DNA from: Escherichia coli
GTDB taxonomy: Bacteria > Pseudomonadota > Gammaproteobacteria > Enterobacterales > Enterobacteriaceae
Reading direction: 5' to 3' (one strand)
Assembly: GCF_041248615.1 (NCBI RefSeq)
Contig: NZ_CP158426.1
Length of the DNA: 64,000 bases
Position numbers: made by a program. Of this stretch, positions 13,901 through 22,900 are shown piece by piece (within the stretch, counting starts at the first letter, position 1; every line of letters starts with the position of its first letter).

Positions 13901-16900
13901 CTTTGTGATTGGTCCGTTATTTTCTGGCTGATATTTGAGCGTATAACAGTGTTATACAGTGGTATACTGTATGGATATTACTCACTGATATGGTCTTTGC
14001 AATGAGCAAATCTAATCTGATCGCGTTCCGCATCCCATCTGAATTGCAGGATGAGTTTAATCGGTCTGTTCTCGCTTCTGGAGGGGATAAAACCTCCTGG
14101 CTTGTTGATGCGATTCGCATGAAGCTGGGACAGCCGGAAAAGTCTATTGATTCACGAATGCTTGGGCTGGTGGAGCGCATGGAAAAAGCCGCAGCATCGC
14201 TTATTGCCGGAAAGCCGAACATCCCACCAAAGCCATATAACGAAACGGCAGTTATAAAGATCATTGCCGATACCATCCGACAGGGATTTGATAATGGGCG
14301 TGTGATAGCGGAACGGCTCAATGAAGCAGGCTACCAAACAAAAGCTGGTAAAGCGTGGGATAAAGACATTTACAGCGCGTGGAAGCGTCAGGGTAACAAT
14401 ATTAAAAGAATCAATACGCTGCTTCAGTAATTGATCAGTGTATAAATGATATTTATCGCTCAATCGCTCCCTTTCCGCCCTTCAGCTACAGGGTCGTTGT
14501 CGGCGATAACAAAACCTAAGTCCTGAGAGAATCTCTCTCGTGGGAATCCTTTAGCAGGTAAACCCATTGAATCATATCCACATCCGGGAACATTTGGTTT
14601 AGAGTCAATAAGGTCTGCAATTTGCCGAAGCCATGTTGATCCCGGACCAAGTCGTTTAACTAAGTACCAGATAATACAGATCGCGCTAAAAATCCTCTCG
14701 CAACTCTCTGGATGGAGATTAAGTCCGTCAAAGTATTCATTATCCGGTACTGGAACTCGGGGATGCTTTCTATTCCATATTCTGGAATGGTGAGCGCAAC
14801 GATTCCTTATGAGATTAAGGCACTTCAACCATTTTGCAAATGTCTGCTTATTATCAATGCCAAAACGACGTATAATTTTCCCCTGCATATGACCATTAAG
14901 CATCGCATAATATTTAGACATCTGACCAAAATCCCAGGTCTCCACCGCCACCCAAAATGGAATCTCCTTGCCTTGGCTTCGATGCCATTCAATACAGTCA
15001 TCTCTGCTTTCGTCTAATTTTACTTTTTGCTTATACACCCAATGCTCGAAGGCAGATGAGAATTTTGGATTAATGTATTTTGATGACATGTAGGCAAGTG
15101 GATCATTGCGACCAACCTCATGCGCGATGACTGAACGAACATGAATCTCTATTCTTTCGATAGCATCAATCATCAAAAGACGCAGTTTTTTGTCAAAAAG
15201 ATATAGATCGTACGTCTTCTCGAAACTGGTACCAGCAAGAAATCGGTCTGTTCTGTACGAAAGACCTTTATCTGTTGTCGCAATAATTCTTGATGGGTAC
15301 CAAAAACCTGACAATCGATAATATCCAACCTGCGACAGCTTACGTATCGCACGATTTCGATCATTGATAATCATGCCACGTTCAAGTAGCAATCCTAGCA
15401 ATTCGTGATAGTCCTTATGAGGCTTTGCGGCAATCATAGTGGCGAAACAAAAGATAATAAAAGGCCCGACCGTGAAACTCACATGCCTGAAATCGGCGGC
15501 GGAGAAACAGAGGATCGGGCTCGGTTGCCTGTAACTCTATCCGAAGTTATCCACATGTCAATGCACAGTTACTTAGGAAACTAACATAGATACTATCATC
15601 ACTCACGAAAAACCACTATATGTGGTTTTTATTCATATTGTTATCCACTACAGGCTGTGTCAATAACTTTTACCTATTAATTGGGTAATTTCTACATTTT
15701 CCTATGCTGGCTAGTTTCTCTACTGAAAAGTTGGCACTCCTTAATCGCTTTTCGGTTAATACTATCGGTCTTCATATTGCCAGCAGCATACGCCATCCGA
15801 TAATTTCTATGCTACGCGCGCGTACTTGTCGCAAAATATCAGGCAAAGGCCAGATTCAGAACGTCGTGATAACCACCAGCACAACATGAGATGTCATGTA
15901 ACGCGATTTATCACACCAGATACATGTGATTGGTGTACCCGCATAAAACATCGTCATAGCGCGTCCTGTGCGCATATACGCCGATAATCAACACATCACC
16001 ACCACTCTGTCTTATGTAGAGAACAGTTTTATGGTGCTCCCCGCCATCGTGTGCGTACTGGTCGGACGTAGTTGCAAAATTTTTTGCAACTGATACCCCT
16101 CGCGCGCGTACTGGTCACGAAATTGGTGTTTTGCTGTGGCAGTGATATCAGAAAAATCTTCCTGTTTCACATAAAGCGGATATGCGCGTACTGTAACGGC
16201 CCCATCAACTGGGAGCGGATTTGAAATCCCGACCCAAGCTATGTACCAAATGCCATGTCTTGGATATATGATGATTGCCATTCTAAACAACGCTAAAGGG
16301 AGGGTTGGTGTGAATCAATTGAAGCGATTGGTTGTCTCCGGTTTATTATTTGCTTCTTTTGGAGCGAACGCTGAATGCTGGATTATTGGTGATCTGAAAG
16401 GACAAGAAGCCTCAAGTTCAGATGGGTATAACTATAAGTTATCATCTATACCAGATACCTTTCATTTGGTAATAAGTAAAGAGAAGGCGGATCTTATCTT
16501 GGCAAAAGATGGTATAGGTGGAGGTATTGATTATTACCCGCTATCTCCGAATGCCATGATGGGAAGAAGCTATCGAGATGGTCAACTGACGCTTGTCACA
16601 TGGGCAATCTCAAATGACGGAAAAGTGATCCATACACGAACAATTAGTCGATCTGATATAGGCTCATTTACAGGCTCATTTGTCGGCAATGTTAAAGGCA
16701 AGTGTTAATGTTCATAACTATTTGAAAAAAATACTAATTACTATTATAACCAACCATCCATGGCCATCTGTTATTGAGCTTCCTTTTGCGATGCTTGTGC
16801 TGCTGTGGTCAGTGATTGTGTGACCGTACTGATCGCTCTGTCATATGCTGTGCTACCTTTTGGCGTATTTGCCAGACGTAACAAGGCATTTCGTATAACA

Positions 16901-19900: not shown

Positions 19901-22900
19901 TATCTGCTATGAATTTTCCAAATGCCCCAGTTCCGAGCGAAGATGCGATTTGAGCACTAGTCGCAAGATGACCAATAGAATTTCTCTGGTCGTCATCAAT
20001 AAAGCCCATCCCTTTCTGAACGCTTTCAAATTCTTCTGGATACTCAGAAATAAGACTGCGCATTTTGTTTCTGTCTCCAGACTCAAAAGCCCCGGCATAT
20101 GCTTTCTGAAACTCTGCTTTACGCTGTTGTTGACGTGCCTGCTGATTAATCTCAGCAACGCCTCTTAGCCCCTGTAGCGCCATTAAACCTACGTTTGGCT
20201 GCTGCTGATACTGCACAGGCTGAGGAACGGAAGAACGAGGAGCATTATCATTTTGCGGTGCCATGCTAGGCAGCCCGCCAAGTTGCCATGTCGCCATTAG
20301 AATCCAAGCCCCCCAACAAGACCAATAAGCCCACCACCAATAGCGCCGGCCGCAGTTCCTATTCCAGGAACAACGGAACCAAGTTGCGCACCCGCTAAAG
20401 CGCCTGATGCTGCCCCACCAATACCACGCGCAAGACTGGATGGCTGCTGCGCCTGACCTGCACGAATAGCGCCAAGCCCCTGCAAGAGTTGTCCGGTATT
20501 ATTGGCGTAGTTTTGCCCTGCCGTTGCCTGCCCTGATGCCGCATTCATCCCGACATTTAGCAGGTTTCCATAATTTTGCATTTGCCCACTAAGCCAATTG
20601 TTATAAAGCATGGGCGCAATGGAAGATAACTGGTTACTGGTAGCTGTTGAGCCAAGCCCCCCGGTAGCTTCTGCTGAGACAAGGTTCTGATAACGGGCCT
20701 GATCTGCCTGTGTTTTATATAAACCAGAACCAAAGAAATCATTCGCGGCTTTATTCTGCCCTTCCAGAGTCATCAGTCCTTGTAGTTGTTGTAAAGCAGG
20801 CAATCCGACTTCTGCATACGGCTTGAGATTATTCATCACCGTATTCCACTGCTCGCGCTGCAAATCAATTGCCTGCTGCTGGGCCTTCGCCTGAGCTTTA
20901 GAGGCACCACCATCACCGCCTTTTTCGTATACGGCACGATTGAGATGTTTATGAGCTATATGGGTAATTAACATTCGCTGAATTCCTTATATTGTTGCCG
21001 AGTTAACTGATAAAGCGTTACGCCGACGGGTTTACCACATCTGATATAAGCATCATCAAGGTGACCAACACGGGTAGCGCCAAGCAAACGGATAATTGCC
21101 CGTCCGTATTTCGTGGTGTCAGGAACCATAGTGATGCTGTTAAGGAATGGTGAGTTTTCGAGAAGCCATTTGCAGAATAATCGATGCCCTTGCAGTGCAT
21201 ATTCACCACGGAATCCGGGGTCGTACACCGCATGGCATTCAACAATGCTATGCCAGAAGTTACGCACTTCATGAACGCCAGCCAGCACCAATCCTTCGTA
21301 GATGCCGAGATATACCGCATCAGGCTTGATGTAGTACGTGTGCCCCGGCTCAACAATATTTTCGGTATTGCCAGGATCGTTAAGAAAGGCCTGTAATCGC
21401 ACAGGGTTATCAATAAATTTTAGTTCCATGCGATGCCATCCATTTTCACATACAGCCTGCCAGCGCCTTATCTATTAACCCTCGAGCAATTTCATGCAGA
21501 GTTGGCGCTACTCCAATTCCTGATTTTTTACGCTGCTCTTCCTGAATTTTCTTTATCGCTTCCATTTGCTTCTCACTTATCAATACCGGCTTTACTGAAA
21601 TAGCCATAACGCCCCCTTAGAACTGTATAAAACAACAGTTATTATAGTTTCACAAATCGCAATATTCATCATCGTAATTGCAAAATATGAAACAGATAGC
21701 ACAAAAAAATGCCACCGCTCAGTAGCTGGTGGCATCGTTCTGTGTGTCAGGTTTTGACAGGTTTTTTATGGACTCTAAAAACTATATTTATGGTGTCGCA
21801 TTACCCTTCACGGCAGGCGCTTTTCAGTTCTGCCCTTGCTTCTGGCTCCATTGGTAATTTGATTCGCGATCAGCTATGCGGATGGTTTGCTGAACAGGCA
21901 TAACAACTTCTCAGTGGCTGTTTTCTGAACTACGAAAATTTCGTAGTGCTCACTTTCAAAAACGTCACGCCCTTGTACACAGGATTTTACGAAAGTCTCG
22001 TAAAACACTCTCTGATGCCAGCCAGGTGTTGTGCGCATCAATTCAGTCACATTGTGTTGGTTCAAAATACCGTGTTGTTGGTTCAGTGTTGGTTCAATAA
22101 AAAGAATAAAATCCTTATAAAACAATACTCTTTACAAATTGAACCAACTGAACCAACTGAACCAACACCTTTTCTACGCACATGAAGAAGCTCATTCTTC
22201 AGATGAGTTATAATCTCCTGGCTGGTAATTGAGTACATAAACGTTTATTTGTCGTCCCTGAATACGTGGTGATTTTCTTTGGTATCCACGACCGCTGTTT
22301 GGTGGGGTTAGCATCCCGGCTTTTTTCAACACTTCAGCAAACTGTTTTGCGTTGAAACCACATGCGATCTCCTTTTCAAATGTGGCCGGGAATGTGTAGA
22401 AAATCATTGGGCTTTCGTCATGTTCTCCACGCTGACGGTATCCGGCTAAATCTTTGATGGGCAAATCTGCCGGGCTGTATGGAAATGGTGCAAAACGGCT
22501 AAGCCCATAGGCATTAAGAAATGCCTCCGTTTGTTCAATAATCTGCTGATGCTCTTTGTTACCTGTGCCGAACTCGCGCAACCATGCGTTATAGCTGTGC
22601 TGTATCGCATCACGGCATGTCTGAGCATCCCAGCCTGTTACAACCTCGCCTAACAACAATGCGGCCTCCAGAATGGCAAATCGCGCGGCTACACGGTGAA
22701 CCTGCTCACCATAATCGGATGGGATCAGGCTTCTCCATCTGCTTTCGCAGTCACGAACGGTTTTAATAGCCTGTTGCTGGTGGTCTGCCAGCCATTTAAT
22801 CCACTCACGCCCGGACGCGCCGTGGTGATGCTGGTAAGCGTCTTTCAGTGCGTCTGCGTGCTGTTTTCCGTTCTGGTAATCGTGAAAGCGTACTGCTTTA

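What the first reader, a model, noticed from the sequence alone, without database searches (positions are those of the whole stretch)
16771..21650. SOS-box-fronted five-gene operon of Q/N/G-rich, glycine-zipper-tailed proteins (53/153/225/473/701 aa) in the island
Five translationally coupled reverse-strand genes follow a promoter carrying a perfect LexA-box consensus. I recognise no enzymatic motif. The three largest are low-complexity Q/A/N/G-rich, and the 225-aa and 701-aa proteins end in glycine-zipper hydrophobic segments typical of membrane insertion. Lengths and order (153, 225, 473, 701) echo the gp14-gp7-gp20-gp16 ejection block of P22-like podoviruses (about 229, 471 and 609 aa for gp7, gp20, gp16), yet there are no coat, portal or terminase genes here and the operon sits in an integrase/AlpA/primase island. 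It could be a domesticated DNA-ejection or membrane-channel module acting in superinfection exclusion or helper exploitation, a membrane-active effector, or an uncharacterised system. This is the best candidate in the window.
Basis: partly seen in the sequence, partly recalled or inferred. Interest (0 to 1): 0.85.

Follow-up and report, generated by a model that had tools for sequence, protein, structure and literature searches.

The report
Phage ejection genes inside satellite island
A 19-kb mobile island of E. coli, of a kind already shown to hitch rides in P22-like phage particles, carries its own intact, probably DNA-damage-controlled set of the phage proteins that build the DNA-injection channel; what the island gains from them has not been tested.

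Summary
Five co-oriented, coupled ORFs (53/153/225/473/701 aa; window 16771-21607, minus strand) follow a TATAAT box and a CTGT-N8-ACAG LexA box. The four large proteins are true homologues of P22 gp14, gp7, gp20 and gp16, in P22 order. They lie in a 19,225-bp int/AlpA/primase island at the 3' end of yicC, with no coat, portal or terminase gene.

The island type is already published. It is an EcCIMP1-like PICI (Pick et al., ISME J 2025), which the P22-like helper Kapi1 excises and transduces. That paper called these genes packaging candidates and did not recognise them as ejection proteins.

New here:
- The module is intact in all 15 islands sampled and under purifying selection (dN/dS 0.1-0.3).
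- It occurs at several integration sites and in about 9% of complete E. coli genomes.
- It comes as at least four gp20/gp16 allele pairs, and some islands keep only gp20+gp16.
- Part of gp16 is at least 98% identical to a true prophage allele.
- EcCIMP1's gp20/gp16 are only 25-30% identical to its helper's.
- The first gene is a predicted ribbon-helix-helix regulator.

Best reading: a satellite-encoded injection kit loaded into helper capsids. This is inferred, not shown.

The parts
12954..12974 (.). Left attachment repeat (TTATTCAATATTCTGAATCTG). This is the displaced native 3' end of yicC.
   Evidence: It forms a 21-bp direct repeat, with 2 synonymous mismatches, with 32179-32199. In island-free E. 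coli genomes, window 12733-12974 is contiguous with yicC.
32179..32199 (.). Right attachment repeat. The island supplies this new 3' end of yicC. The island is 19,225 bp from repeat to repeat.
30722..31990 (-). Tyrosine integrase of the island.
   Evidence: RefSeq annotation of the identical sequence. Pfam Arm-DNA-bind_3, Phage_int_M and Phage_integrase in sibling islands.
29385..29603 (-). AlpA-type helix-turn-helix regulator (72 aa). Its counterpart is the master activator in EcCIMP1.
   Evidence: [quoted passage not shown]
22192..24948 (-). Primase/replicase (Zn-ribbon, Toprim and DUF927 domains).
22054..22168 (.). Probable island replication origin: three copies of GTTGGTTCA and three inverted copies around a 40-nt AT-rich spacer.
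   Evidence: The function is inferred from the layout typical of PICI and SaPI origins (general knowledge).
21711..21736 (-). Intrinsic terminator that closes the primase operon upstream of the ejection operon.
21641..21646 (-). -10 hexamer TATAAT of the operon's own promoter. The -35 is weak (ATGAAT, 3 of 6).
   Evidence: Read from the sequence. Invariant in 15 of 15 island loci. The consensus scan did not call it.
21621..21640 (.). LexA (SOS) box AACTGTTGTTTTATACAGTT, lying between the -10 hexamer and the Shine-Dalgarno sequence.
   Evidence: Weight-matrix score 20.1 bits, second in the window after the dinD box. Invariant in 15 of 15 island loci, including leaders that differ at 6-7 nearby positions. 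LexA binding is not tested.
21446..21607 (-). First gene of the operon: a 53-aa predicted ribbon-helix-helix DNA-binding protein, specific to the island.
20968..21429 (-). gp14 homologue (DUF2824; the P22 gene 14 'head morphogenesis' family).
   Evidence: phrog_651 1e-66. PF11039. 84% identical to Kapi1 gp14 and 23% to P22 gp14.
20297..20974 (-). gp7 homologue (ejection protein) with a C-terminal glycine-zipper hydrophobic tail.
   Evidence: phrog_598 3e-70. PF25688. 56% identical to P22 gp7. Tail at residues 198-225.
18876..20297 (-). gp20 homologue (ejection protein; the periplasmic tube component in P22).
   Evidence: phrog_917 2e-110. Pfam Inj_translocase 2e-57 over residues 34-213. 38% identical to the N-terminal part of P22 gp20.
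16771..18876 (-). gp16 homologue (ejection protein; the inner-membrane component in P22) with a hydrophobic Gly/Ala segment at residues 615-653.
   Evidence: phrog_770 8e-162. 30% identical over 482 aa to P22 gp16, E 6e-52. PF26808 on 96%-identical cluster representatives. Residues about 250-701 are at least 98% identical to the gp16 of a true P22-like prophage contig.
16268..16708 (+). Convergent gene in the position that sieA holds in P22. It encodes a 146-aa protein with a signal peptide (phrog_2651).
   Evidence: It is 29-34% identical to morons of phages 434, Sf6 (gene 38) and HK446, and to a gene in the slot downstream of gene 16 in the P22-like phage Emek. Sibling islands carry a SieA homologue in this position (PF26849).
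13443..15437 (-). Accessory end of the island: AbiD/Abi_2 defence gene (14460-15437), a 146-aa ORF on the plus strand (13990-14430) and a PerC-family regulator (13443-13730).

Best explanation
What it is. The operon is a complete, working copy of the internal-virion 'ejection protein' module of P22-like podoviruses: the gp14 assembly factor plus gp7, gp20 and gp16. It is owned by a phage satellite, an EcCIMP1-type PICI integrated at the 3' end of yicC.

Proposed mechanism:
1. In the resting cell, LexA sits on the box between the -10 hexamer and the ribosome-binding site and keeps the operon off. (Inferred.)
2. DNA damage also induces P22-like helper prophages. When it cleaves LexA, the island transcribes the small ribbon-helix-helix regulator and the four virion genes from its own promoter, independently of the helper's late-gene activator. 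(Inferred.)
3. In P22, E-proteins enter procapsids during assembly, need only the scaffold, and foreign alleles assemble. This is published for P22. The island's proteins would therefore be loaded into helper-built capsids. (Inferred for this island.)
4. Particles that then package island DNA would use these proteins to build the trans-envelope conduit in the next cell. (Inferred.)

Likely pay-off. The satellite brings a matched gp20/gp16 pair of its own. It is therefore independent of whichever E-alleles its helper has. It may also be able to enter cells whose resident P22-like prophage blocks injection with SieA-type exclusion, which acts on gp20 and gp16.

Shown here: homology, gene order, island context, conservation and selection, allele diversity, and the sequence of the LexA box.

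Shown in the literature for a sibling island: helper-dependent excision and transduction by a P22-like phage.
For: - Homology of all four proteins to the P22 families, in P22 order.
- Same architecture in every island. The exact gp7-like protein is listed in 11,256 index blocks, and all 10 diverse places read show int-AlpA-AntA-Ash-primase-53aa-gp14-gp7-gp20-gp16. The contexts include the yicC and proA/tRNA-Thr sites and at least one other flank, with integrases of 404, 419 or 422 aa.
- Prevalence. The leader is present in 502 of 5,426 complete E. coli genomes.
- Published sibling. EcCIMP1 has the identical 53-aa protein and gp14/gp7 99% identical. It excises only with the P22-like phage Kapi1 and is transduced by it (PMC11773190).
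- Not a remnant. All ORFs are intact in 15 of 15 islands. dN/dS is 0.10-0.16 for gp16, 0.18-0.38 for gp20 and 0.05-0.3 for gp14.
- Virion-competent alleles. Residues about 250-701 of gp16 are at least 98% identical to the gp16 of a contig carrying the full terminase-portal-coat-needle-14-7-20-16-tailspike operon. This implies recent exchange with phages.
- Allele replacement inside one backbone: 473/701, 488/701, 447/705 and 439/906 aa. Some islands keep only gp20+gp16. Those are exactly the two proteins that must be a matched pair and in which SieA-escape mutations map, whereas gp7 is interchangeable (PMC10461980).
- EcCIMP1's gp20 and gp16 are 30% and 25% identical to those of its helper Kapi1.
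- E-proteins are loaded at procapsid assembly and require the scaffold but not the portal (PMC4992974). Sf6 gp16 assembles into P22 particles.
- The module has its own terminator-bounded transcription unit, with a TATAAT box and a LexA box that are invariant in all islands sampled.
Against: - No direct evidence that the proteins are expressed or enter particles.
- E-proteins are loaded before DNA is packaged, so the island cannot reserve them for its own particles. Helper and island sets would mix. P22 genetics shows that a mismatched gp16/gp20 pair is non-functional.
- EcCIMP1 does not change Kapi1 titres, and its transduction is inefficient, about 5e3 per ml. Either the proteins are incorporated sparsely or mixing is harmless.
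- Most island-bearing strains lack a helper prophage: 2 of 21 in PMC11773190, and 4 of 15 have a second E-gene locus. Many mobilisations would therefore follow helper infection, where SOS control is not obviously useful.
- The anti-SieA benefit is pure inference. Mapping the P22 escape residues onto the island alleles was uninformative.
- The LexA box rests on sequence alone. The weight matrix was built from sites recalled from memory, and the -35 element is poor.
Confidence: 0.5

Rival explanations
1. Exclusion or defence module. The island uses the block, together with the convergent gene in the sieA position, to protect its host from P22-like phages. Cytoplasmic gp16/gp20/gp7 would disturb the incoming conduit, or would act as membrane-active abortive-infection effectors after DNA damage.
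For: - EcCIMP1 increases the superinfection immunity of Kapi1 lysogens (PMC11773190).
- Sibling islands carry a SieA homologue directly downstream (PF26849; 29% identical to P22 SieA; motif NRYPGEA).
- The window's gene in that position is related to prophage morons.
- AbiD lies next door.
- gp7 and gp16 have membrane-active segments.
Against: - A LexA-repressed operon would be silent in the healthy cells that need exclusion.
- The proteins have no signal peptides, whereas the conduit assembles from outside the cell.
- The gene in the sieA position is a separate, convergent transcription unit. It can explain the immunity phenotype without the E-proteins.
- Near-identity of gp16 to a phage allele and the retention of the assembly factor gp14 point to use in virions.
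Confidence: 0.15
2. Helper interference. The island floods assembling helper procapsids with a mismatched gp20/gp16 set, so that helper virions carry non-functional mixed conduits. This would be a satellite-type parasitic reduction of helper progeny.
For: - A mismatched gp16/gp20 pair gives non-infectious P22 although the foreign protein is assembled (PMC10461980).
- The island alleles are 25-30% identical to those of the known helper.
- SOS-timed expression ahead of helper late genes could give the island proteins a head start (inference).
Against: - Kapi1 titres from induced lysogens are unchanged by EcCIMP1 (PMC11773190).
- Poisoning would hit satellite particles equally, because loading precedes DNA packaging.
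Confidence: 0.1
3. Packaging or capsid-morphogenesis role, as proposed by the EcCIMP1 authors. The DUF2824 and 'DNA transfer' proteins would redirect helper packaging or capsid assembly toward island DNA.
For: - The module sits downstream of the primase, where other PICIs keep packaging and capsid-remodelling genes (PMC11773190).
- gp14 is annotated 'head morphogenesis'.
- gp16 was once described as a pilot protein in the initiation of procapsid assembly (Thomas & Prevelige 1991, cited).
Against: - In P22, 7-, 16- and 20- mutants make DNA-filled particles that merely fail to deliver DNA (PMC10461980). The families therefore have no known packaging role.
- No TerS-like or Rpp-like similarity was seen in these proteins.
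Confidence: 0.1
4. Passive cargo: a captured fragment of a P22-like late operon that persists by hitch-hiking and does nothing for the island.
For: - The block plus the sieA position reproduces the P22 layout 14-7-20-16-sieA, as expected for en-bloc capture.
- Some islands have lost gp14 and gp7.
Against: - ORFs are intact in all 15 islands. dN/dS is 0.1-0.3.
- The leader gene and promoter are island-specific and absent from phages.
- Alleles have been replaced repeatedly with reading frames and couplings preserved.
- Prevalence is about 9% of complete genomes.
Confidence: 0.05

Closest known systems
EcCIMP1, the phage-inducible chromosomal island of E. coli MP1 (Pick, Stadel & Raivio, ISME J 2025; PMC11773190)
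   Same: - Same backbone and gene order: int, AlpA, AntA antirepressor, DUF4222, Ash, primase with DUF927, 53-aa gene, DUF2824, gp7, gp20, gp16, accessory genes, PerC.
- The 53-aa protein is identical, and gp14 and gp7 are 99% identical.
- Similar size: 19,225 bp against 19,963 bp.
- Identical LexA box and -10 hexamer.
   Different: - Integration site and integrase differ: yicC 3' end with a 422-aa integrase here, tRNA-Thr at proA/yagU with a 404-aa integrase in EcCIMP1.
- The gp20/gp16 alleles are unrelated at 23-33% identity: 473/701 aa here, 439/906 aa with an SLT domain in EcCIMP1.
- The gene after gp16 differs: a convergent 146-aa secreted protein here, a co-oriented 232-aa protein there.
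- The accessory genes differ (AbiD here).
- The published work did not identify the genes as ejection proteins. It stated that there are no phage structural genes and did not mention a LexA box.
The P22 late-operon segment 14-7-20-16(-sieA) and its counterparts in Sf6, HK620, CUS-3 and Kapi1
   Same: - The same four protein families, in the same order, with similar lengths and similar coupled junctions, followed by a convergent gene in the exclusion-gene position.
- The same mosaic allele behaviour of gp20 and gp16 (PMC10461980).
   Different: - Not in a late operon. No needle gene 26 lies upstream and no tailspike lies downstream.
- The module has its own promoter with a LexA box and a ribbon-helix-helix leader gene that no sequenced phage has.
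- In 13 of 14 loci from other species the block lies in ordinary prophages. Only the Escherichia locus is an island.
Capsid-forming PICIs (cf-PICIs) and the capsid-remodelling satellites P4, SaPI and PLE
   Same: All are satellites that encode some virion-related proteins of phage origin and take the rest from a helper (general knowledge; reviewed in PMC6893505 and PMC10085698).
   Different: Those satellites encode capsid, portal, scaffold or size-determination proteins, or packaging redirectors. None of the papers I could search reports a satellite that encodes ejection (internal virion) proteins. Here the capsid, portal, terminase and tail must all come from the helper.
SOS-box-controlled genes of E. 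coli (for example dinD next to the island, and uvrB)
   Same: A CTGT-N8-ACAG palindrome overlapping the promoter. The score lies within the range of known sites. From memory, the box is close to the uvrB box AACTGTTTTTTTATCCAGTA.
   Different: Binding and induction are untested. In EcCIMP1, the island's master regulator alpA responds to the helper and not to DNA damage alone. A LexA-controlled virion-protein operon would therefore be a second, separate input.

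Membership tests
P22-type ejection-protein module (gp14/gp7/gp20/gp16) | Sequence homology of each protein to the corresponding P22 family | tested here: met
   PHROG matches at 1e-66 to 8e-162. BLASTP against P22 at 1e-6, 2e-52, 2e-42 and 6e-52. 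Pfam Inj_translocase at 2e-57. Precomputed PF11039, PF25688, PF16928 and PF26808.
P22-type ejection-protein module (gp14/gp7/gp20/gp16) | Gene order 14-7-20-16 with tightly coupled junctions | tested here: met
P22-type ejection-protein module (gp14/gp7/gp20/gp16) | Location inside a late structural operon, between the tail-needle gene and the immI/tailspike region of a P22-like (pro)phage | tested here: not met
   No coat, portal, terminase, needle or tailspike gene in the island. Thirteen prophage loci from other species, used as controls, do show that context.
P22-type ejection-protein module (gp14/gp7/gp20/gp16) | Proteins present in virions and released into the envelope before the DNA | not testable with these tools
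   Needs particle proteomics and infection assays.
Gram-negative PICI (EcCIMP1-like) | Integrase with flanking direct repeats at a specific chromosomal site | tested here: met
   The 21-bp imperfect repeats lie at 12954-12974 and 32179-32199, at the 3' end of yicC. The site is empty in most E. coli genomes.
Gram-negative PICI (EcCIMP1-like) | AlpA regulator, a primase-replicase with an adjacent origin, and a largely unidirectional gene layout | tested here: met
   Iterons at 22054-22168.
Gram-negative PICI (EcCIMP1-like) | Near-identity to the published element across the backbone | tested here: met
   The MP1 locus has the same order, the identical 53-aa protein and gp14/gp7 99% identical.
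Gram-negative PICI (EcCIMP1-like) | Helper-dependent excision, replication and high- or specific-frequency transfer | not testable with these tools
   Shown only for EcCIMP1 with Kapi1 (PMC11773190). Not shown for this yicC island.
Gram-negative PICI (EcCIMP1-like) | Absence of phage structural genes (the classical PICI criterion) | tested here: not met
   The island encodes three virion-internal proteins and an assembly factor.
LexA (SOS) regulon | CTGT-N8-ACAG operator overlapping the promoter | tested here: met
   The promoter itself is only inferred.
LexA (SOS) regulon | LexA binding and RecA-dependent induction | not testable with these tools
   Needs a gel-shift assay and a lexA(Ind-) reporter.
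Ribbon-helix-helix (MetJ/Arc/CopG) regulators (the 53-aa protein) | Strand-helix-helix fold | tested here: met
Ribbon-helix-helix (MetJ/Arc/CopG) regulators (the 53-aa protein) | Match to a curated ribbon-helix-helix sequence family | tested here: not met
   No Pfam, PHROG or NCBIfam hit. No BLASTP similarity to P22 Arc or Mnt.
SieA superinfection-exclusion proteins (the window's 146-aa gene) | Multi-pass inner-membrane protein with the FnRYPnEA motif (PF26849) | tested here: not met
   The window protein has a signal peptide and no SieA similarity. The 204-aa protein of sibling islands does meet the feature.

The most novel reading that the evidence does not exclude
The island carries an alternative DNA-injection conduit (a matched gp20/gp16 pair, usually with gp7 and gp14). 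It swaps or adds this conduit into helper-built capsids so that satellite DNA can enter cells protected by SieA-type injection exclusion. Those are the P22-like lysogens, which are the satellite's best future hosts. This would be the first satellite known to replace its helper's DNA-delivery machinery. The many gp20/gp16 alleles in one island backbone would then record an arms race with exclusion proteins, with SOS-timed early expression giving the satellite's set priority during procapsid assembly.
Probability: 0.2. Interest if true: 0.75.

Novelty: new member of a known kind. Interest (0 to 1): 0.5.

Why it matters
Satellites are known to steal or remodel capsids, redirect packaging and, in cf-PICIs, build their own heads. 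I found no paper describing a satellite that supplies the proteins which carry DNA across the recipient's envelope.

This island family is common, present in about 9% of complete E. coli genomes. It carries defence genes (AbiD, SieA-like) and virulence-regulator genes (PerC-like). How it enters new cells therefore bears on gene flow in commensal and pathogenic E. coli.

The finding corrects a published annotation, which reads 'no structural genes; packaging candidates'.

It also gives the P22 field a natural experiment. Several gp20/gp16 allele pairs occur on one isogenic backbone, some with and some without sieA. This bears on two open questions: how gp20 and gp16 recognise each other, and what SieA targets.

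An experimental system already exists in MP1, Kapi1 and EcCIMP1.

Tried and rejected
- NCBIfam: no match for any of the five proteins or their neighbours.
- Pfam copy used by profile_search: it lacks the gp16 and gp7 families, so the 701-aa protein gave only a spurious Htt_bridge hit. I relied on PHROGs, BLASTP against P22 and the precomputed Pfam hits instead.
- PDB sequence search: no solved relative for any of the four proteins.
- Sequenced phages, DNA level: none covers more than 34% of the block, so no specific helper can be named for this island.
- SieA-escape residues: mapping P22 gp16 G532/P546 and gp20 T338/T341/A348/G350 onto the island alleles failed. The alignments at 25-30% identity are unreliable in that region.
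- Species-wide scan with gp7: only 15 loci were returned, too few for a taxonomic census.
- Co-occurrence with helper prophages: it could not be computed, because the genome search lists at most 60 records. The rough figure (4 of 15 island genomes with a second E-gene locus) is not informative.
- Capsid-size idea: I considered that island size (19.2 kb) might match a small T=4 P22 capsid. I dropped it, because known T=4/T=7 satellite systems package about one third of the helper genome (about 14.5 kb here).
- EcCIMP1 versus EcCIO42: I checked whether the island is the published PICI EcCIO42 of strain 042. That element was marked at locus 1749, whereas this island's copy in 042 lies at 4.21 Mb. 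They are different islands.

Full report
**1. The observation**

- 53 aa, 21446-21607
- 153 aa, 20968-21429
- 225 aa, 20297-20974
- 473 aa, 18876-20297
- 701 aa, 16771-18876

The junctions are a 16-nt gap and then overlaps of 7, 1 and 1 nt.

Upstream, the primase operon ends in a stem-loop followed by a T-run (21711-21736). Then come TATAAT (21641-21646), two bases, and CTGTTGTTTTATACAG (21623-21638). A G-rich ribosome-binding site and the ATG follow.

How good is the LexA box?
- The CTGT-N8-ACAG core alone is not statistically remarkable: 3 in the window against 0.6 expected, and 3 of 100 shuffles reach 3.
- I built a weight matrix from 21 E. coli LexA sites recalled from memory, which is a caveat. 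It ranks this site second in the 64-kb window at 20.1 bits.
- The first-ranked site is the authentic dinD operator next to the island (23.9 bits), which was left out of training. The candidate lies within the spread of the training sites.
- The -35 element is poor, and the generic promoter scan did not call the promoter.

The compositional remarks are right, with one correction. The hydrophobic Gly/Ala segment of the 701-aa protein is at residues 615-653, not at its end.

**2. What the proteins are**

| Window ORF | P22 counterpart | PHROG | BLASTP against P22 |
|---|---|---|---|
| 153 aa | gp14 | phrog_651, 1e-66 | 23% identity, 1e-6 |
| 225 aa | gp7 | phrog_598 'DNA ejection', 3e-70 | 56%, 2e-52 |
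| 473 aa | gp20 | phrog_917, 2e-110 | 38% over the N-terminal half, 2e-42 |
| 701 aa | gp16 | phrog_770 'DNA transfer protein', 8e-162 | 30% over 482 residues, 6e-52 |

- Pfam gives Inj_translocase for the 473-aa protein (2e-57).
- The collection's precomputed Pfam hits on identical or near-identical proteins are DUF2824, P22_gp7, Inj_translocase and Phage_P22_gp16.
- The order 14-7-20-16 and the lengths match P22 (151, 229, 471 and 609 aa).
- No solved structure is related by sequence.

**3. Where they are**

- The window is 100% identical to E. coli NRZ14408.
- The genes lie in an island between dinD and yicC.
- The island is bounded by a 21-bp imperfect direct repeat: 12954-12974 and 32179-32199. 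The right copy re-creates the 3' end of yicC. The island is 19,225 bp.
- Island-free genomes join dinD directly to yicC.
- Island genes in order:
  - integrase;
  - a 216-aa ORF;
  - AlpA-type HTH;
  - AntA antirepressor;
  - DUF4222;
  - Ash;
  - several small ORFs;
  - a Toprim/DUF927 primase;
  - an iteron-type origin, 3 + 3 inverted GTTGGTTCA;
  - the ejection operon;
  - a convergent 146-aa secreted protein;
  - AbiD;
  - a PerC-family regulator.
- There is no coat, portal, terminase, tail or lysis gene.

**4. It is a family, and the family is published**

The exact 225-aa protein is indexed in 11,256 blocks of public assemblies. All ten diverse places that were read show the same architecture, in several chromosomal contexts and with integrases of 404, 419 or 422 aa. 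These contexts include the yicC site, the proA/tRNA-Thr site of MP1 and at least one other flank. The leader with the LexA box is present in 502 of 5,426 complete E. coli genomes.

A literature search led to EcCIMP1 (PMC11773190). What that paper shows:
- It is a 19,963-bp PICI of E. coli MP1.
- It circularises only in the presence of the P22-like phage vB_EcoP_Kapi1, and Kapi1 transduces it at about 5e3 per ml.
- It needs its alpA and int genes.
- It does not lower helper titres.
- It adds to the superinfection immunity of lysogens.

The MP1 locus has the same gene order, the identical 53-aa protein, and gp14/gp7 99% identical to the window's. The window therefore contains an EcCIMP1-like PICI at another attachment site.

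[quoted passage not shown] They proposed EcCIMP1_017-019 ('DNA transfer', DUF2824) as packaging candidates. The words 'ejection', 'injection' and 'LexA' do not occur in the paper. None of my other searches found a satellite described as encoding ejection proteins. The library is not exhaustive.

**5. Evidence that the module is functional and phage-grade**

- Intact. All 15 island loci in hand have intact, equally coupled ORFs.
- Under selection:
  - gp16: dN/dS 0.10-0.16 (for example, 83 synonymous against 48 non-synonymous differences between the window and L003).
  - gp20: dN/dS 0.18-0.38.
  - gp14: dN/dS 0.05-0.3.
- Several allele sets. The backbone carries different gp20/gp16 pairs: 473/701, 488/701, 447/705 and 439/906 aa. 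The last has a lytic-transglycosylase domain. Identity between types is 22-55%.
- A reduced form. One sub-family has dropped gp14 and gp7 and keeps only a 57-aa leader gene followed by gp20 and gp16. It makes up roughly 40% of the leaders, judged from the identity and coverage bands.
- Shared with a true phage. Residues about 250-701 of the window's gp16 are at least 98% identical to the 671-aa gp16 of a contig carrying the full operon, from terminase and portal through gp16 to the Arc genes and antirepressor. The N-terminal 60 residues and the neighbouring gp20 are unrelated between the two. This indicates a recent phage-island recombination with a junction inside gp16.
- Other species. In a one-genome-per-species scan, 13 of 14 gp7 loci from other genera were ordinary P22-like prophages. 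Only the Escherichia locus was an island.

**6. What is specific to the island**

- The 53-aa first gene has no Pfam, PHROG or NCBIfam match and no tblastn match in 50,697 phage records.
- A profile-free search found a small family of 39 clusters.
- With their alignment, AlphaFold2 gives a confident model (pLDDT 90.9): an extended N-terminus followed by two helices.
- Foldseek found nothing significant.
- It is therefore probably a small transcription factor.
- Its relatives sit in mixed contexts, so its target is unknown. One lies between internal-virion-protein genes of a podophage contig, another in a different yicC island.
- The TATAAT and LexA boxes are invariant in all 15 islands. This includes the leaders of the gp20/gp16-only sub-family, which differ at 6-7 nearby positions. 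That is weak evidence, since the whole leader is conserved.

**7. The position after gp16**

In P22, sieA lies convergent to gene 16.

- In several sibling islands, the convergent gene at that position is a 204-aa multi-pass protein. It is 29% identical to P22 SieA, has a PF26849 hit, and carries the conserved NRYPGEA motif described for SieA.
- In the window, the position holds a 146-aa protein with a signal peptide (phrog_2651). Its relatives are morons beside cI in phages 434, Sf6 and HK446, and in the slot downstream of gene 16 of the P22-like phage Emek.
- The island thus reproduces the phage layout 14-7-20-16 plus an exclusion-gene position.
- That separate gene is a simpler candidate for EcCIMP1's immunity phenotype than the E-proteins.

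**8. How it most likely works**

Established P22 biology supplies the constraints:
- Virions hold about 12 gp7, 12 gp16 and 30 gp20 molecules. These enter at procapsid assembly and need the scaffold but not the portal (PMC4992974).
- Particles lacking any one of the three are DNA-filled but cannot inject.
- gp16 and gp20 must be a matched pair, whereas gp7 is exchangeable.
- Foreign E-proteins assemble into P22 particles.
- SieA-escape mutations map to gp16 and gp20, and HK620 E-proteins partly escape SieA (PMC10461980).

Against this background, the minimal island module (gp20+gp16) is exactly the co-adapted pair that SieA targets. The one known satellite-helper pair has gp20 and gp16 only 30% and 25% identical.

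I therefore favour a satellite-encoded injection kit:
1. DNA damage de-represses the operon through LexA.
2. The proteins are loaded into helper procapsids.
3. They are used in the next cell.
4. Independence from the helper's alleles, and possibly escape from injection exclusion, is the benefit.

Only the sequence-level facts are shown. Expression, incorporation and benefit are inferred.

Main difficulties:
- Loading precedes DNA packaging, so island and helper sets must mix.
- EcCIMP1 neither lowers Kapi1 titres nor transduces efficiently.
- Most island-bearing strains have no helper prophage, which makes SOS control less obviously useful.

**9. Rivals**

- Defence or exclusion role: possible, but hard to reconcile with LexA repression and the absence of export signals.
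- Helper poisoning: contradicted by unchanged helper titres.
- Packaging role (the published suggestion): contradicted by the phenotypes of P22 E-gene mutants.
- Inert cargo: contradicted by selection, by allele turnover with preserved frames, and by the dedicated promoter.

**10. Verdict**

- The locus is a new member, at a new integration site and with a new gp20/gp16 allele pair, of a published PICI family whose helper is P22-like.
- What is not in the literature I could search:
  - the recognition that these islands carry a full ejection-protein module;
  - its putative SOS/ribbon-helix-helix control;
  - its allele diversity and exchange with phages;
  - sieA homologues in satellites.
- Interest is moderate. 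The biology is testable in an existing experimental system and would add a new kind of satellite strategy if the delivery-kit or anti-exclusion idea holds.

Noticed in passing
window 22054-22168: There are three direct GTTGGTTCA repeats and three inverted copies around a 40-nt AT-rich spacer, immediately 3' of the primase gene. This is probably the island's replication origin.
   Followed up: partly
window 16268-16708 (+): The gene occupying P22's sieA position encodes a 146-aa protein with a signal peptide (phrog_2651). It is 29-34% identical to lysogenic-conversion morons next to cI in phages 434, Sf6 (gene 38) and HK446, and to a gene in the slot downstream of gene 16 of the P22-like phage Emek. 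It is a candidate periplasmic exclusion factor.
   Followed up: partly
L002 7338-7952 (+); also L006, L012 and L014: Sibling islands carry a 204-aa type-B-like SieA homologue (PF26849, motif NRYPGEA) convergent to gp16. The SieA paper reported sieA only inside P22-like prophages in all the cases it examined. Here it sits in a satellite.
   Followed up: partly
L003 9907-11551; L004 10000-11521: One island sub-family lacks gp14 and gp7. It has only a 57-aa leader gene followed by gp20 and gp16, with different alleles (488/701 and 447/705 aa). The L004 gp20 is 75% identical to that of phage Kapi1.
   Followed up: partly
L016 13481-16201 (EcCIMP1): The gp16 allele of EcCIMP1-type islands is 906 aa and fuses an SLT lytic-transglycosylase domain to the gp16 domain. 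A co-oriented 232-aa ORF of unknown function follows it.
   Followed up: no
window 19328-19347: The third-best LexA-like site in the window (CCCTGTATGCAAATCCAGCA, 17.6 bits) lies inside the gp20 coding sequence. It may be chance.
   Followed up: no
window 12776-12795: The dinD SOS operator (AACTGTGTTTATATACAGTT) lies about 180 bp from the island's left end. It served as a positive control for the LexA matrix.
   Followed up: yes
window 14460-15437 (-) and 13990-14430 (+): There is an AbiD/Abi_2 abortive-infection gene (PADLOC 7e-58) with an adjacent unknown 146-aa ORF. In other islands this accessory position holds ImmA/IrrE (M78) genes with a partner, or PRiA4_ORF3. It behaves like a defence hotspot between the ejection operon and PerC.
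   Followed up: partly
L037 6688-8782: A 66-aa homologue (53% identical) of the island's 53-aa protein lies in a BPP-1-like podophage contig. It sits between an 'internal virion protein' (phrog_418) and a large transglycosylase-type internal protein (phrog_1044). The small protein family may therefore travel with ejection-protein modules more generally.
   Followed up: partly
window 16771-18876 compared with L033 10001-12016: There is a sharp mosaic junction inside gp16. The first roughly 60 residues are unrelated, residues 60-250 are about 80% identical, and residues 250-701 are at least 98% identical to a prophage allele whose gp20 is of another type. This hints that the gp16 N-terminus co-varies with gp20.
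   Followed up: partly
window 45000-50000: G+C drops to 30-35%. This lies beyond rfaQ, in what should be the waa LPS-core cluster. I did not examine it.
   Followed up: no
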